Part shown: positions 4,775 through 24,844 of the stretch, in pieces
How positions within the stretch are numbered: the stretch's first letter is position 1
Layout: every line of letters begins with the position of its first letter
From: Anaeromyxobacter sp.
GTDB taxonomy: Bacteria > Myxococcota > Myxococcia > Myxococcales > Anaeromyxobacteraceae
Assembly (NCBI GenBank): GCA_049840735.1
Contig: JASGJN010000012.1
Coordinates: forward strand, 32,001-96,000
Direction: 5' to 3'
Length of the DNA: 64,000 nucleotides
The notes under the pieces: model-generated
What the model saw: only the letters and a program-made list of their open reading frames with translations
Databases searched by the model: none
Told to the model about the DNA's origin: nothing
Made by a program: the position numbers and the translations under genes

Positions 4775-6871
4775 TCAGGGCGGCGCCGGTGCGTCCTGGA
4801 GCGCCGCCAGGGCGGCCCGGGCCGCAGGGATCTCGGGCTCTTCCCTCACCAGGGCGGCCAGGGTGTCGCGGGCCTCGCCCCGGGCCCCCCGGGCCTCCAG
4901 GAGCCGGGCCAGGTCCAGGCGCGCGGTGGCCAGGTCTGGCGCGGCGGCCAGGGCGGCGCGCAGGAGCCGCTCGGCCTCGTCCGGCTGCCCCGTCGCGGCC
5001 AGCGCCCGGGCGCCCACCACCAGCACCAGCGGCTCGCCCGGCCCGGCCTGCAGCGCGGCCTGGGCCAGCCGCGCGGCGGCGGCGCGCTCCCCCGTGTCGA
5101 GCGCCACCTGCGCCCGGATGGCCAGGGGCAGCGCCGACTGGGGCGAGGCCTGCTGCGCCCCCCGCGCCAGCCGCTCGGCCTCGCGGGTGTGGCCGAGCAC
5201 CAGCTCGGCGCAGGCGGCGGCGGCCAGCGCGCGGCGCGCGGTGGGCGGCTCCGCGGCGGCCAGCGCGGCCAGGCGGGAGGAGGCCTCGGCCACCGGCGCG
5301 GGCCCCTCCCAGAAGTCGGTGGGCATGCGGCGCAGGCGGCCGTCGAGCGGATCGCGGCGGAGCGCCTCGTCGGCCAGCTGCAGGGCCAGCCCGGAGGCGC
5401 GGAGGCGCAGCAGCCCGCCGGCCACCGCGAGGAGCGCGGCCGGGTCGCGGGCCGCCGGCCGGGCCAGGGCGCGGTAGGCCCGCTCCGCCTCGTCCAGATC
5501 GCCCAGCTCGGCCACCCGCGCGGCCAGCAGCAGCTGCACGCGCGGCCCGCCGCCCTCGGCCACCACGCCGGCCGCCAGGCGCAGCGCCGGCAGGTCCCCC
5601 GCCGCGTGGGCCAGCAGCGCCTCCTGGAACCGGGCCGGACCGTTTCCCGGCACCCTGCGCAGCGCCTCGCCCACCGCCGCGCGGGCGCCCGCGGGATCGC
5701 CGCTGGCGCGGGCCACGGCCGCCCGGTGCGCGAGGATCCGGGCCGCCTCGAAGTCGTCCGGGTGGCGCGCCAGGGCCTGGTCGAGCAGGCGGGCGGCGGC
5801 GGGGAGATCGCCCTCGAGCTGGTAGGCGTTGCGGGCGGCCAGCAGCAGCGGCGTGGCGGCACGCGGATCGGCGACCGCCCAGCGGTCCAGCGCCGCCCGC
5901 GCCGCGTGCGGCCGATCGAGGGCCAGCTCGGTCTCGGCCAGCAGCTCCAGCGCGCCGCCGTGGTCGGGGTCCAGGGCCAGCCGCTCGCGGGCCAGCGCGC
6001 GCGCGCCGGGCGCGTCGCCGGATGCCCAGCGGCTGCGGCACGCCGCGGTGAGGAGGCGCCGGTCCCCCGGGTGGGCGCGGGCCGCGGCGGTGAGCGCGGC
6101 GGCGGCCGCCGCGGGGTGGCGCTGCAGCTCGCAGAGCCCGGCGGCGAGCTGCACGCCCGCATCGCCAGGAGCGGCCGCCAGCGCACCCTCCGCCACGCGC
6201 GCGGCCTCGGCGCGGTTGGAGGGGCTGGGAACGGCGAGCAGCAGCCGGGCGTAGGCGGCCTGCAGCCGAGCGTCGCCGGGGACCCGGGCAGTGACCTCGC
6301 GCAGCACCGCGTGGGCGCGCAGCAGCTCCGCGCCGTCGAGCAGCTCGGTGCGGGCCTCGACCAGCGCCGTCGCGTAGCCTGCGACCGCCTCGACGCGGGC
6401 GGGATCGGCCGCCAGCGCGGCGCGGAAGTCGCCCAGGGCGGCGCGAGCGCGGGCCGGCGTGTCCGCGGCCAGCCCGGCCTCACCGGATTGCAGCAGGGCG
6501 GCGGCGTCGGACGAGGCTCCCGAGGCGGGGAGCTTGCCGGCGGCGCGCCAGGCGGCCACGGCCTGGGCGACCGCCTGCGGATCCTGCTCGGCGGGAGGGG
6601 CGCGCCAGGCCTGGAAGCGCCTCCAGGCAGCGGGGAGGCCAACCCAGCAGGCGCCGCCGAGGGCGGCGGCGAGGAGCAGGGCCAGGGTCGCGAGGCCGAG
6701 GCGGCGGAGCACGGCGCCGGAGGCGCGGGCAGGAGGGACCGCGGGGTCGCCGGCAAGCACGGCGGTGGTGCCGACGATGGTCCGGCAGGCTGGGCACCCT
6801 GGCACCGAGCCCGGGCGCGCGTCGTCCGAGTCGTGGACGGCGAAGCAGCGGGCGCAGGTGGTGGCGGGCAT
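4775..6871 (-). CDS. Membrane-anchored TPR-repeat protein with N-terminal CxxC..CxxC zinc ribbon
   Basis: CARC...CPAC, one TM segment, repeated ALxxDP TPR-like helices. Confidence 0.7.
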   Translation of the reverse strand: MPATTCARCFAVHDSDDARPGSVPGCPACRTIVGTTAVLAGDPAVPPARASGAVLRRLGLATLALLLAAALGGACWVGLPAAWRRFQAWRAPPAEQDPQAVAQAVAAWRAAGKLPASGASSDAAALLQSGEAGLAADTPARARAALGDFRAALAADPARVEAVAGYATALVEARTELLDGAELLRAHAVLREVTARVPGDARLQAAYARLLLAVPSPSNRAEAARVAEGALAAAPGDAGVQLAAGLCELQRHPAAAAAALTAAARAHPGDRRLLTAACRSRWASGDAPGARALARERLALDPDHGGALELLAETELALDRPHAARAALDRWAVADPRAATPLLLAARNAYQLEGDLPAAARLLDQALARHPDDFEAARILAHRAAVARASGDPAGARAAVGEALRRVPGNGPARFQEALLAHAAGDLPALRLAAGVVAEGGGPRVQLLLAARVAELGDLDEAERAYRALARPAARDPAALLAVAGGLLRLRASGLALQLADEALRRDPLDGRLRRMPTDFWEGPAPVAEASSRLAALAAAEPPTARRALAAAACAELVLGHTREAERLARGAQQASPQSALPLAIRAQVALDTGERAAAARLAQAALQAGPGEPLVLVVGARALAATGQPDEAERLLRAALAAAPDLATARLDLARLLEARGARGEARDTLAALVREEPEIPAARAALAALQDAPAPP

Positions 6872-6899
6872 GGCGCGAGAGGAGGCTACAGGGATCGAG

Positions 6900-7420
6900 G
6901 GGTGGGGGGGAAGGCGTGGGGGGCTGGCTGGAGGGACTGGGTGTGGCGGGTGGCGGGGCGGGGGTGCGGGGGGGGGCTTGGGGTGAGGGGGGGTGGCGGT
7001 GAGGGGGGCTGGCGGTGAGGGAGGGTGGCGGTGAGGGGGGCTGGTGGCGAGGGGGGCTGGCGGTGAGGGGGGCTGGTGGTGAGGGGGGCTGGTGGTGAGG
7101 GGGGCTGGTGGTGAGGGGGGCTGGTGGTGAGGGGGGCTGGTGGTGAGGGGGGCTGGTGGCGAGGGGGGCTAGTGGCGAGGGGGGCTGGTGGTGAGGGGGG
7201 CTGGTGGTGAGGGGGGCTAGTGGTGAGGGGGGCTGGTGGTGAGGGGGGCTGGTGGTGAGGGGGGCTGGTGGTGAGGGGGGCTGGTGGTGAGGGGGGCTGG
7301 TGGTGAGGGGGGCTGGTGGTGAGGGGGGCTGGTGGTGAGGGGGGCTGGTGGCGGGGCGGGGGGCTGGTGGCGGGGCGGGGGCTGGTGGCGGGGCGGGGGG
7401 CTGGTGGCGGGGCGGGGGGC
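6900..7420. repeat. G-rich tandem repeat, unit about 16 nt GGTGAGGGGGGCTGGT (about 20 copies, degenerate ends)
   Basis: Directly visible; strongly strand-asymmetric. Confidence 0.9.
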
Positions 7421-7592
7421 GATCGGCGCGCGGGGGGCCTGCCGGCGGTGCAGGGCGCAGGGGAACCCCTGCCCCTGCGCCGCGGGCGGTACCGTACTGA
7501 GGGAGAGGGAGGGGGGGCTGGGACGGGGGCGGGGTGGGTAGAGATAGGGTGCGGACGGGGCGGGAACGGGGTCAGGTCGTTCGTGTTTGCGC

Positions 7593-7744
7593 TCACATAC
7601 TCCAGCGCGTGCGCCCTTGGAGTCAACTGAGAGTTACTTACTCCAGCGCGTGCGCCCTTGGGGTTAACTGAGAGTCACTTACTCCAGCGCGTGCGCCCTT
7701 GGGGTCAACTGAGAGTTACTTGCTCCAGCGCGTGCGCCCTTGGA
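7593..7744 (+). repeat. 41-bp tandem repeat x3.7 (consensus TYACTTACTCCAGCGCGTGCGCCCTTGGRGTCAACTGAGAG)
   Basis: Units start at 7593, 7634, 7675, 7716. Confidence 0.95.
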
Positions 7745-7789
7745 GGGGATCCGAAGCGGGGTCACGTCATTGCTGATGACGCTGGGGAT

Positions 7790-7839
7790 CCGTTCGGGCT
7801 GAGCGTAGCGAGCCCGCAGGGCTCGCGGAGTCGAAGCCC
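7790..7839. repeat. REP-like palindromic element family A (CCGTTCG..CTGAGCG...GGAGTCGAAG)
   Basis: Second copy at 29584-29621; internal hairpin GCGAGCCC-GCA-GGGCTCGC. Confidence 0.7.
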
Positions 7840-8118
7840 AGGCGCCGTGAGGCCCCGGCGCTGGAGCAAGTGGGGCGTCTCGCGGCCTTTGCCGGATTTC
7901 GCTTGACGTGAATTGGGCGCGGCGCGGTTTCCGCGGCGCGGCTCCGCCGGAAACGCCTCTCCTGCAATGCTCTGCGTGATCTCCCGGACGTGCCGGGAGG
8001 CGCGTGGGGGAGCGGAGATGGGCTCGCGAGATCTCGCCTCCTGGGCGGCGCCAGGGGCCTCGGCGAGCACCTCGAAAACCGGGCTTACGATGGCGTCCTC
8101 TGCTGGAGGTGCACGCCA

Positions 8119-20736: not shown

Positions 20737-21162
20737 GTGACCTCCCGGCTCGCCCTCTTCGCCCTCGCCCTCTGCGCGCTCCCTGCGCGCGCCGACGCGC
20801 CGGATGCGCGCGCCGCCACCCTGCAGGCCATGGAGGCCGAGCTGGGCCGCTCCATGGGCCGGCTCAGGCTGGAGGGGTACGACGCCCCCTACTTTGCCTC
20901 CTACCAGGTGGTGGAGACGACCCGGCACGAGCTGGGCGGCCGCTTCGGCGCGCTCTTCACGGACCGCACCCGGCGCAGCCGGACGCTCAGCGTGGACGTG
21001 CGGGTGGGGAGCTACGAGCTCGACTCCTCCGGTCCGGAGGAGAACGCCATCCTCCTGGGCGCCGACGGCCCGAGCTGGTCGGCGCCGCGCGAGGCCCCGC
21101 TGGACGGGGACGTGGCCGCGCTCCGCAACGCGCTCTGGCTGGTGACCGACGAGCAGTACAAG
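20737..21162 (+). pseudogene. 5' half of a secreted TldD/PmbA-family metallopeptidase, interrupted by the CRISPR/IS insert
   Basis: Signal peptide, AMEAELGRSM..L, VRVGSYELD; ends LWLVTDEQYK where repeat-like sequence begins. Confidence 0.8.
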
Positions 21163-21239
21163 CTTCAGGGGCCGCTCCCGAGACAAGCCCCCAGACCGGC
21201 CCACCCAGGGGGCCCTCGTAGGAGCAGAGCCGCGCACAG

Positions 21240-21804
21240 GCTTCAACGGGGCCGCTCCTCGTGAGGAGCGGAGAGTCCCACCGACGACCCCGTCCCGGGC
21301 TCGTTCGCTTCAACGGGGCCGCTCCTCGTGAGGAGCGGAGAGCCCCACGGCCGCGACCATGCCTTCGCCTCCGTGCGGCTTCAACGGGGCCGCTCCTCGT
21401 GAGGAGCGGAGAGGCCGACGCCAACACAAGACCGCTGAACGTCTCTTCAACGGGGCCGCTCCTCGTGAGGAGCGGAGAGGTCGAGGCCCGCCGCTCCCGT
21501 CGGGCTTCAACGGGGCCGCTCCTCGTGAGGAGCGGAGAGGCTGCAGCCAGATCCAGATGCGGCCGTCACAAGCTTCAACGGGGCCGCTCCTCGTGAGAAC
21601 AGGGGCCGCCCTCGTGAGGAGCGGAGAGCCGGGGATGAGGCCCACAACGAACGCGGCGCTTCACGGGGCCGCTCCTCGTGAGGAGCGGAGAGGGCGCTGA
21701 GAACACCGAGTCGCGAGGCGCAGCTTCAACGGGGCCGCTCCTCGTGAGGAGCGGAGAGCCTCCTGCGCGCGCCCGGCGACGTCTTGCTTCAACGGGGCCG
21801 CTCC
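21240..21804 (-). CRISPR. CRISPR array block 1: 9 repeats (GCTTCAACGGGGCCGCTCCTCGTGAGGAGCGGAGAG on +), 8 spacers of 24-35 nt; two degenerate repeat relics at 21162-21229
   Basis: Repeats start at 21240, 21307, 21378, 21444, 21504, 21572 (internal partial duplication), 21658, 21723, 21786 (cut by IS). Minus-strand form has an 8-bp stem and ends GTTGAAGC, resembling type I-G (I-U) repeats. Confidence 0.95.
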
Positions 21805-22350
21805 TGTGATCGGCCACACCGATCCGTGTGAAGTGCGGCCAGGAGATCGAGCGCCGGAAACTTCGTGAGCCTGCGGCGGGCAGGTACGACGGAGAGGTCA
21901 CGCGTCGAAAGGACGAAGGCCGGGAGCGGCAACTCCCAGCCTTCCGTGTCGAGCGAGGGCGCGTCGACGTACGCAGCCTCGCCCGAGACGAGCGCCATGG
22001 CAAGAAGTCGGCGCGGGCAAGGGCGTGCCCGATCACCGGCTGGCTACATGCGCGCGCTGTCGCGCGTCGTTCTCGCTCTGTCGCGCGTGTGACCGAGGCC
22101 AGGTCTTCTGCGGGCCGGCGTGTCGGGCAGCGGCGCGCTCGAGGTGATCCGCGCGGCGCGGAGGCGTCATCGTCAGAGCGACGAGGGCAGGCTCGACCAC
22201 CGGGATCGGGAGCGTGCGCGGCGCGCTCGGCGGTCAGCCCGCGTGGGGATCTGGGTTCCGAGAAGTTGCCGTCGTCGCCGATGGTCCGCGCGGACGCTGG
22301 CGCGTGCGACTCCACGGTGGAGCCGGGCGTCGCCGCGCCCGAGGTTCATC

Positions 22351-22721
22351 ATGAGCGAAACGATCACGGTCACCATCGCCCCCAGCCGGACCGCGTGATC
22401 CTGGCCACGACGGCGACGCACGACGTTCTCAAGGCTGTCCTCGGACCGTCGCGCCGGTCTCATCCGAGAGCGGCGGCGACGTTGCTCGAGGGGCTCGCCC
22501 TCTGGCATCAGCAGCCCCTCTCCGTTGTGCTGTCTGCGGACGCCTCGGACGATGGTACCGCGCTGGGCCTCTGCGACGCGCTCGGGTTTGGACGCTCGCT
22601 CCACTACGAGGTCGCCCTCGCGTACGCGGATCGCTGGCACGGGCGCCGACGACGTGATCGTCGAGGGCTCGGTGACTTCCGCGACCTGCGCCAGCTCTCG
22701 TTCTGGGAGGCGTCGCGATGA
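22351..22721 (+). CDS. IS passenger hypothetical protein upstream of istA (frameshift about 22395)
   Basis: MSETITVTIAPS..RVI...AAATLLEGLALWHQQPLSVVL...GLGDFRDLRQL; ATGA-coupled to istA. Confidence 0.6.
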
Positions 22722-23070
22722 CGGTGAGCATCGCGACCGCCGCGAGATCCGGCGGCTCTACTTCGCCGAGCATTGGAAGCGCGGGACGATTGCCGCCCAG
22801 CTCGGGGTCCACTTCGACACCGTGGCGCGCGTGCTCGGCAGCTTCGGCCCCAAAGCCGGGACGCCAAGGCCCGAGGCTCGCGTTCTCGAGCCGTACGTCG
22901 CGTTCGTCGATGAGACGCTCGCGCGTCACCCGCGTCTCGTATCCACCCGCATCCACGACATGCTCGTCGAGCGCGGCTACAGCGGCAGCCTCCGCACGCT
23001 CCGTCGTACGTTCGCGCCAGTCGGCCAGCGCCGCGCAACGAGGTCTACGTGCGCGTCGAGTCCCTCAGCA
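22718..23070 (+). pseudogene. istA: IS21-family transposase IstA, N-terminal fragment
   Basis: REIRRLYFAEHWK.GTIA.QLGVH.DTV, LEPY..FV.ETL.RHPRL.STRI..ML.ERGYSGS...LRR; degenerates after about 23070. Confidence 0.8.
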
Positions 23071-23335
23071 GGCGGTGGCTCACGTGAGCTTGTTGCGCGA
23101 TGTGGGCCGAGCTCGTGGTCAAGAGTAGCAGCGCACGAGAAAGGCAAGGTCAGCGCATCCGCATAGCCTCGGCCTCGCTCTCCATAGCTGGGCCACGTCG
23201 TCACACGTCGTCCCACAATTCGTGCGTCCCAGCCTCAGCGTGGCTCACGCACGTCGCGAGGCGAAGGCGTCCCCGCCAGACATCGAGCAGCTCTCACATA
23301 AATATCAAAAGAGTAATAGGGGCAGAGAGAAAAAA

Positions 23336-23550
23336 ACTTCGGGCGCTCCTCGTAGGAGCGGAGACTTGTCGTTGACTTGCTCCGCTCGCAAGCTTCAACG
23401 GGGCCGCTCCTCGTGAGGAGCGGAGAGGACGACGGCGGCATGACGAGGCGCTGCTGCTTCAACGGGGCCGCTCCTCGTGAGGAGCGGAGAGGCCGCGCTC
23501 CCCACCGCGAAGCGAAGAAGCGATGCTTCAACGGGCCGCTCCGTAGGAGA
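23336..23550 (-). CRISPR. CRISPR array block 2: two perfect repeats (23392, 23456) and two degenerate ones (about 23336-23365, 23525-23550), 3 spacers
   Basis: Same 36-nt repeat as block 1. Confidence 0.92.
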
Positions 23551-24844
23551 AGGCGCTCAAAAAGTCCGACTACTTCAAGAAGAAGTCGAAGGGGGTCTAC
23601 CGGCCCGACGCGGCCGACCGCGCCCCGTCCTTCTCCCGCGAGCCGGCCTCGCGCCACGTGGACGCGCCGCTCCCGTTCACCTTCGACGCCGAGGCCTGGC
23701 GCGGGCGGATCCGCGAGGCCACCGCCCGCTTCCGCGATCACCCGGAGATCTTCGACGCCGAGGTGGAGCTGACGGCGGAGCGGCAGGTGCGCTGGTTCAC
23801 CTCCAGCGAGGGCTCGGCCCTGATCACCGAGCAGGCCGTCTACAACATCCACCTCACCGCCGTGACCCGCGCCCCCGACGGCCAGCTGCTGGAGGACGGA
23901 CGCGACTGGTACGCGCCCACCGAGGCCGGCCTGCCCGCGCCGGCGCAGCTGGGCGCGGCGGTGGATCAGGTCATCCAGGAGCTGGTGGCGCTGCGCCAGG
24001 CCCCGGCCATCGACCCGTACACCGGGCCGGCCATCCTCGAGTCCGAGGCCGCCGGCGTCCTCTTCCACGAGGCGCTCGGCCACCGGCTGGAGGGGGAGCG
24101 GATCGACGACGACCAGGACGGGCAGACCTTCCGGGGCCAGGTGGGCCAGCGGATCCTGCCGCCCTTCCTGACGCTGGTGGACGATCCCACCCTGGCCACC
24201 CTCGGCGGCCAGCCGCTGAACGGCTTCTACCGCTTCGACGACCAGGGCGTGCCGGGGCAGCGCACCGTGCTGGTCCGCGACGGGAAGCTCGAGGCCTACC
24301 TGCTCTCGCGCAAGCCGGTGGCGCCGTTCACCCGCTCCAACGGCCACGGCCGCGCGCAGGGCATCCGCCGCCCGGTGTCGCGCATGTCCAACCTGATCCT
24401 CACCTCCACGCGGCAGGTGCCCGCCGCCAGGCTCAAGCAGCAGCTGATGGAGGAGGCGCGCCGGCAGGGCAAGCCCTTCGGGCTCATCATCCGGGACATC
24501 ACCGGCGGTGACACCAACACCGCCTCCTACGGCTACCAGGCCTTCAAGGGGACGCCGCGGCTGGTCTACCGCGTCGACGCGAAGACCGGCGCCGAGCAGC
24601 TGGTGCGCGGCGTGGAGCTGGTCGGGACGCCCCTCTCCAGCGTCAACCGGGTGCTGGCCACCAGCGACCGGGCCCAGGTGTTCAACGGCTACTGCGGCGC
24701 GGAGAGCGGCTACGTGCCGGTCTCGACCGCGGCGCCCGCCGTGCTGGTGCAGGAGCTCGAGCTGCAGCGGGTGGCCCGCGCCAGCGACCGCAGCCCCATC
24801 CTCCCCGCCCCGTGGACCGACCAGGGCGGCGGGTCACGATCTGA
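23550..24844 (+). pseudogene. 3' part of the TldD/PmbA-family metallopeptidase (frame stays open to 25022; true end probably about 24844)
   Basis: KAL..SDYFKKKSKGVYRP, FHEALGHRLEG zinc motif, DDP, Y.FDDQG, SNGHGR, RMSNL, FNGYCGAESGYVPVS. Confidence 0.88.

What the first reader, a model, noticed from the sequence alone, without database searches (positions are those of the whole stretch)
20737..24844. Cas-less CRISPR array dropped cleanly into the middle of a TldD/PmbA gene
Seen: the gene reads ...LWLVTDEQYK (ends 21162), then about 2.39 kb of CRISPR repeats and IS sequence, then resumes KAL(KK)SDYFKKKSKGVYRP... (23550) and continues to the HExxxH site. Both junctions are repeat-derived and share an AAG, so the insert is bounded by the repeats themselves rather than by IS ends. 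There are no cas genes in the window. Inference: the halves join with little or no loss of coding sequence. If real, this is an array mobilised as a unit (for example ectopic Cas1-Cas2 integration or repeat-mediated recombination) that knocks out or switches a secreted peptidase. An at least equally plausible reading is a chimeric or low-coverage long-read insertion: the terminal repeats are smeared and the spacers (24-35 nt) are short and uneven, as deletion-prone single reads would give.
Basis: partly seen in the sequence, partly recalled or inferred. Interest (0 to 1): 0.85.

Follow-up and report, generated by a model that had tools for sequence, protein, structure and literature searches.

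The report
Foreign CRISPR fragment stitched into assembly
A stretch of another microbe's CRISPR array and transposon sits in the middle of an otherwise intact peptidase gene, but it is so error-ridden compared with the rest of the genome that it is most likely a long-read sequencing or assembly artefact rather than real biology.

Summary
The insert is there: 2,387 nt (21163-23549) of a myxobacterial G-type (I-G-like) CRISPR array, split by an IS21-family element, interrupts a tldD-like gene with no codons lost. It looks like a low-quality read of foreign DNA. Against sludge-metagenome copies of the IS, the substitutions are almost all synonymous, but all 7 indels are deletions in the window, about 5/kb against 0.18 frameshifts/kb genome-wide. 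About 1.2 kb of IS collapses to 171 nt of short islands. Spacers are 24-35 nt (36-37 is typical) and only 7 of 16 repeat pieces are perfect, while the host's own I-E array is nearly flawless. Nine extra A-rich bases sit inside host codons that 14 of 14 orthologs lack. The repeat occurs nowhere else in this assembly or in 400 sampled phylum genomes, and the assembly has other foreign welds (second rpoBC, second cysS). Raw reads of this assembly were not available, so a real minority event (Ku/LigD end-joining capture) is not excluded (about 10%). The scan noted one other array-junction artefact on unrelated DNA, not this one. Verdict: probably not a real feature.

The parts
20737..21162 (+). 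5' half (142 codons) of a TldD/PmbA-like peptidase gene, host sequence, no frameshift
   Evidence: 70% identity to G006 ortholog residues 45-161
21163..21239 (-). Smeared left end: two partial, deletion-ridden repeat remnants with 24- and 10-nt gaps
   Evidence: aligns to the array above all 60 shuffles, and not to the host flanks
21240..21804 (-). CRISPR array, 36-nt G-type repeat (ends TTGAAGC on the minus strand, 8-bp hairpin), spacers 24-35 nt, one collapsed unit at 21572-21628; the last repeat is cut after 19 nt by the IS
   Evidence: type criteria from PMC11237760 section 7
21805..23066 (+). 5' 1.26 kb of an IS21-family element: Cys-rich orf0 (about 22020-22340), 124-aa orf1 (22351-22721), istA N-terminus (22718-23066); about 97% identical to sludge-metagenome copies, with 6 deletions in this stretch
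23067..23237 (+). Collapsed IS body: about 1,180 nt of the reference element represented by 171 nt holding short exact islands (23095-23120; about 20 nt ending at 23151)
   Evidence: tables 5 and 8
23238..23340 (+). 37-nt IS island (23238-23274, one deletion), then 66 nt of A-rich junk (44% A, 41% GC) in place of up to about 700 nt; no recognisable right inverted repeat
23337..23549 (-). Rest of the array: remainder of the IS-split repeat, two perfect repeats, and a terminal repeat with 4 deleted bases and a truncated end
23550..24844 (+). 3' half of the tldD-like gene (HExxxH at 24066); its first 15 nt contain 9 extra A-rich bases absent from orthologs

Best explanation
The organism most likely has an intact tldD-like gene. 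The insert is a fragment (originally about 4 kb, inferred) of a different organism's chromosome, a G-type CRISPR array with an IS21 element in one repeat, that entered the contig through one or very few error-rich long reads and was never corrected by the host's own reads. Shown: the insert is foreign to the rest of the assembly, far more deletion-rich than its flanks, collapsed in several places, and bordered by noise inside host codons. Inferred: it rests on about one read; the multi-copy parts (repeats, IS 5' end) were partly polished by reads from other copies while spacers and the IS 3' half were not; and the host-foreign-host order arose in the read signal or in the draft/polishing step. 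The exact physical step is not determined.
For: (a) Against sludge contigs the IS shows 32 listed substitutions. All 12 that fall in the securely framed parts of orf1 (22406-22679) and istA are synonymous, and the orf1 protein is 98% identical, so the element is under selection, not decaying. Yet 7 of 7 indels are deletions in the window (binomial p 0.016). (b) 6 indels in 1.26 kb (4.8/kb) against 213 frameshifts in 1.21 Mb of 1,150 host genes (0.18/kb; contig C12 0.35/kb); Poisson P of about 1e-4 or less for 5 or more. (c) 1,180 nt of IS shrink to 171 nt with islands of 20-37 nt; in one contig 103 nt become 28. (d) 11 spacers average 29.6 nt and none reaches 36, against a 36-37 average for G-type (PMC11237760) and periods of 72-73 in a related array (L181). 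Only 7 of 16 repeat pieces are perfect. Internal control: the host I-E array has 37 of 40 periods at exactly 61 nt and no indel in 41 repeat cores. (e) Nine extra A-rich nt lie inside codons conserved in 14 of 14 orthologs. (f) The repeat is absent from the other 25 contigs and from 400 sampled phylum genomes at up to 3 mismatches; no close IS copy in the assembly or in 36 congeners (best 68%); no Cas4 in the host (control rang). (g) The assembly has other foreign welds: a second rpoB/rpoC at the start of C23 (40-62% vs 93-95% for the host copy), a second cysS at the start of C19 with 3 frameshifts in 1.4 kb, and 40-47% GC tails joined abruptly to C21 and C26.
Against: No reads of this assembly could be examined; the runs found hold at most 12% of the stretch and none spans either junction. 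A host-foreign-host structure with zero loss is not among the chimera classes I read about (inverted, cross, gapped; PMC13141652 passages), and I have no citation for it. It is not a common error here: among 1,150 genes tested, 7 were flagged for an internal gap, and this was the only confirmed foreign kb-scale insert (2 others inspected and found to be host sequence, 4 not inspected). The background frameshift rate comes from tblastn and is a lower bound, while the IS indels come from nucleotide comparison; by the tblastn method only about 3 frameshifts per kb of IS coding sequence would be seen, still roughly tenfold higher. The donor genome and its cas locus were not found. The smeared parts do not resemble the host flanks, so they are not a blend of host and insert.
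Confidence: 0.8

Rival explanations
1. Real but rare: in a minority of cells a double-strand break in the gene was repaired by Ku/LigD end joining that captured a linear fragment of another myxobacterium's DNA, which happened to hold part of an array and an IS. The assembler reported this minor haplotype, so the sequence has single-read quality.
For: The host encodes 2 Ku and 3 LigD polymerase-domain matches. NHEJ captures heterologous DNA in chromosomal breaks and adds a few non-templated bases in Sinorhizobium (PMC6379672 passages). It explains zero loss, no homology, no TSD and arbitrary fragment ends. Assemblers can output variants supported by a single read (bioRxiv 2025.04.22.649783 passages).
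Against: The extra bases lie at two points inside host codons rather than at the join. The noise rises at both junctions. The assembly has several welds that are clearly technical. Capture was rare even under selection in the cited assay.
Confidence: 0.12
2. Fixed insertion of a mobile G-type array: the array moved as a unit by repeat-mediated recombination or Cas1-Cas2 and inactivated the gene, then decayed.
For: Both ends are repeat-derived, with 1-5 nt of microhomology to the gene. G-type arrays are reported scattered away from cas genes in myxobacteria (PMC11237760). Isolated arrays move horizontally with MGEs in Pseudomonas (PMC13142298 passages).
Against: A fixed insert would be polished like its flanks and like the I-E array. 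Decay would bring non-synonymous substitutions with the deletions, and they are nearly absent; the two gene halves are also undecayed. No leader, no other copy of the repeat, no Cas4, and no csb1/csb2 match (the csb searches had no positive control). Repeats make up 16 pieces of the insert, so both ends touching repeat sequence is not very improbable by chance.
Confidence: 0.05
3. IS21-driven event: the IS mobilised flanking array DNA (one-ended or composite transposition) into the gene.
For: An IS21-family istA lies in the insert.
Against: The IS is internal and splits a repeat; the insert ends are not IS ends; there is no other close IS copy in the assembly and no duplication at the gene.
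Confidence: 0.03

Closest known systems
Long-read metagenome assembly errors: chimeric contigs and variants resting on one read (bioRxiv 10.1101/2025.04.22.649783; passages read)
   Same: Foreign sequence inside a host contig; a contig can carry a region supported by few reads or one; unsupported indels.
   Different: The passages read describe end-to-end chimeras and sub-population variants, not a zero-loss foreign insert inside a gene.
Nanopore false-positive chimeric reads (PMC13141652; passages read)
   Same: Abnormal signal at chimeric breakpoints; false insertions of 114 and 508 bp were caused by such reads.
   Different: The classes are inverted, cross and gapped; a host-foreign-host read is not described in what I read. 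The platform of this assembly is inferred from its error profile, not known.
Myxobacterial G-type (I-G) CRISPR arrays, including scattered ones (PMC11237760 section 7)
   Same: 36-nt repeat, hairpin, TTGAAGC tail, no adjacent cas genes.
   Different: Spacers are 24-35 instead of 36-37 on average; the host has only an I-E system in the searches made; the array lies inside a gene with broken ends.
Isolated arrays moved by MGEs in Pseudomonas aeruginosa (PMC13142298; passages read)
   Same: Array away from cas; IS elements near or within arrays.
   Different: Those arrays have leaders, match the host's own system and sit at a consistent chromosomal locus; none of this holds here.
NHEJ capture of heterologous DNA in Sinorhizobium meliloti (PMC6379672; passages read)
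   Same: Homology-free insertion at a break; the host has Ku and LigD.
   Different: Shown with selection and an engineered break; here there is no evidence of a real molecule.

Membership tests
G-type (I-G) myxobacterial CRISPR array | 36-nt repeat with hairpin and TTGAAGC tail | tested here: met
   criteria
G-type (I-G) myxobacterial CRISPR array | Spacers averaging 36-37 nt | tested here: not met
   24-35 nt, mean 29.6, n=11; read as deletion error
G-type (I-G) myxobacterial CRISPR array | Cognate csb1/csb2/cas3/cas4-cas1 genes in the genome | tested here: inconclusive
   No PF09617 or PF09609 match, but no control rang; no Cas4 with working control; the only Cas1 lies at the I-E locus; genome 94% complete
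G-type (I-G) myxobacterial CRISPR array | Leader sequence at the array start | tested here: not met
   On the minus strand the first repeat abuts the host gene at 23549/23550
IS21-family element | istA DDE transposase | tested here: inconclusive
   Only the N-terminal 87 aa: NF033546 E 3e-11, 43 bits, below the 160 cut-off; a full-length relative in G051 passes
IS21-family element | istB, right inverted repeat and target duplication | tested here: not met
   3' half collapsed; no right IR detected; the repeat resumes with a possible 5-6 nt overlap that cannot be verified
TldD/PmbA peptidase gene | PmbA_TldD C-terminal domain and HExxxH motif | tested here: met
   NCBIfam TldD equivalog scores are below cut-off, so TldD-like only
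Assembly/read artefact | Error density far above the assembly's background | tested here: met
Assembly/read artefact | Most raw reads skip the insert; low depth inside it | not testable with these tools
   No run holding the host stretch was found; only contigs were laid
Cas1-Cas2 off-target integration | Single spacer-sized insert with target duplication (recalled, not from a call) | tested here: not met
   Multi-kb insert, no duplication of gene sequence beyond a possible triplet

The most novel reading that the evidence does not exclude
The insert is a real molecule: a natural, homology-free capture of about 4 kb of another myxobacterium's chromosome (array plus IS21) into a double-strand break, by the host's Ku/LigD system or by mobility of scattered G-type arrays, caught in a minority lineage of a wild population. 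That would be a direct snapshot of how orphan arrays and new IS families enter genomes.
Probability: 0.12. Interest if true: 0.6.

Novelty: not a real feature. Interest (0 to 1): 0.13.

Why it matters
As an artefact it is a useful warning: a genome rated 94% complete and 1.6% contaminated carries a false pseudogene, a false orphan CRISPR array and spacers that would give wrong virus-host links, plus foreign rpoBC and cysS pieces. If it were real, it would be rare natural evidence for end-joining capture of foreign DNA or for whole-array mobility.

Tried and rejected
Exact repeat in genome contigs and metagenome contigs: 0. IS left-end patterns in the same collections: 0. Looser repeat patterns: 0 of 150 phylum genomes and 0 of 20 genomes of one other family; 1 viral contig (L181). 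The donor was therefore not identified; among named relatives of IS orf1, one cluster member is labelled Polyangiaceae, which is only a hint. Spacers: no significant phage match (best E 0.7), no plasmid match to the array, only 15-17-nt matches in the host. Rfam: nothing. The idea that smeared parts blend host flank and insert: not supported. The idea that such inserts are common in this assembly: not supported. The sludge runs hold the IS and not the host or the array, so they say nothing about the habitat or presence of the host; uncovered parts prove nothing. A literature search for arrays inserted into genes or ectopic integration found 0 papers with 4 of 5 terms; two searches on chimeric reads listed no paper whose title or abstract describes a host-foreign-host read; PMC10333696 passages gave no repeat sequence to compare. 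No structure or complex prediction was run, as it does not bear on the question. Supplements were not read; data sets of PMC11237760 may list repeats closer to this one.

Full report
Setting. The window is G000:C12:32001-96000 of a 6.67-Mb, 26-contig, about 74% GC assembly. That it is an Anaeromyxobacter-like myxobacterium sequenced with long reads is my inference from gene content and error profile; no call names it. C12 is collinear with relative G006 on both sides of the locus.

Observation. The tldD-like gene stops matching orthologs at 21162 and resumes at about 23550. The C-half carries a PmbA/TldD domain and HExxxH. Of 40 other genomes searched, the 14 best ortholog loci were examined, and all 14 are uninterrupted at this point with K-E-A-L-x-x-aromatic. 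No conserved codon is missing in the window, but three extra A-rich codons are interleaved with the first host codons on the right. So there is no loss, but the join is not clean.

Anatomy of the insert. It is a single array of a 36-nt repeat that forms an 8-bp hairpin and ends TTGAAGC on the minus strand, which fits the myxobacterial G-type mostly found with I-G systems (PMC11237760 section 7). An IS21-family element starts at 21805, 19 nt into one repeat, and the repeat resumes near 23340. The IS has two accessory ORFs and istA. There is no leader.

The insert is foreign to the host. The repeat occurs on no other contig, in none of 400 sampled phylum genomes at up to 3 mismatches, and not exactly in the genome or metagenome collections. 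The closest IS in the assembly or 36 congeners is 68% identical, while four activated-sludge runs hold a copy about 97% identical. The host's own system is type I-E on C13; Cas4 was not found, and the csb1/csb2 searches were blank without a working control.

The insert has raw-read quality. First, against the sludge IS the 12 substitutions in securely framed coding parts are all synonymous and orf1 is 98% identical in protein, yet all 7 indels are deletions in the window. Decay would not look like this. Second, 6 indels in 1.26 kb compare with 0.18 frameshifts/kb in 1,150 host genes (of 1,991 G006 ORFs queried; those under 55% identity or 60% coverage were dropped) and 0.35/kb on C12. The methods differ in sensitivity; a like-for-like count still gives about tenfold. 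Third, about 1,180 nt of the IS are reduced to 171 nt with islands of 20-37 nt, and up to about 700 nt more to 66 nt that are 44% A; that the reference contigs are IS to their ends is inferred from their 3.2-kb length in two runs. Fourth, spacers average 29.6 nt against 36-37, one unit has lost its spacer, and 7 of 16 repeat pieces are perfect. The host's I-E array, assembled in the same genome, has 37 of 40 periods at 61 nt and no indel in 41 repeat cores. A fixed insertion would have been polished like that array.

The assembly has other foreign material. C23 begins with a second rpoB/rpoC far from the host copy, C19 with a second, thrice-frameshifted cysS, and C21 and C26 end in 40-47% GC sequence joined abruptly. 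Such chimeras and single-read variants are documented for long-read metagenome assemblers (bioRxiv 2025.04.22.649783, passages), and abnormal signal at breakpoints for chimeric nanopore reads (PMC13141652, passages).

What speaks against the artefact reading. I could not see the reads. A host-foreign-host structure with zero loss is not among the chimera classes in the passages I read. It was the only confirmed such insert among 1,150 genes (7 flagged, 2 others inspected and found to be host sequence, 4 not inspected). The donor was not found. The host has Ku and LigD, and end joining can capture foreign DNA (PMC6379672, passages), so a real minority haplotype would give the same low quality. 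G-type arrays do occur scattered in myxobacteria.

Verdict. About 0.8 artefact, 0.12 real minority capture, 0.05 fixed mobile array, 0.03 IS-driven. The consensus organism very probably has an intact gene. Earlier notes of the scan held nothing on this locus or sequence and one loosely similar array-junction case in another genome. Interest is low, mainly as a quality-control example.

Noticed in passing
G000:C23:1-7500 and C19:1-25000: Foreign contig starts: a second rpoB/rpoC (40-62% to G006 vs 93-95% for the host copy on C17) and a second cysS with 3 frameshifts; GC 59-65% against about 75%.
   Followed up: partly
G000:C21:381500-383900; C26:577170-584960: Low-GC tails (40% and 47%) joined abruptly, apparently mid-gene, to host sequence; probable chimeric ends.
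   Followed up: partly
G000:C22:830000-972777; C25:125000-161792; C4:1-35000: Long terminal blocks at 59-64% GC whose G006 homologs almost all match better elsewhere in the genome (36 of 38 for C22); islands or larger chimeras.
   Followed up: partly
window 21805-23066; L087:3600-5900: IS21-like element with two accessory ORFs before istA: a Cys-rich orf0 and a 124-aa orf1 with 941 homologs and no Pfam domain among those listed; the same layout occurs in G051.
   Followed up: partly
G000:C13:464000-474340: Host type I-E CRISPR-Cas locus with 41 repeats, 61-nt period.
   Followed up: yes
G000:C20:96373-96623: In-frame insertion of about 77 codons in a host gene, low-complexity plus a REP-like element found many times in the genome; possibly a coding REP insertion.
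   Followed up: no
L181:1-185: A phage-like contig with a terminase-like ORF carries three related G-type repeats at its end, period 72-73.
   Followed up: partly
G000:C13:309355, 397154; C13:394616, 587395; C20:608701: Two Ku and three LigD polymerase-domain matches.
   Followed up: partly
window 6001-8000: Strong local GC skew (0.19 and 0.44) unlike the rest of the window.
   Followed up: no
whole assembly: 178 of 1,150 tested genes (15%) are frameshifted, 12 of 46 on C12, so broken genes in this genome need caution.
   Followed up: yes
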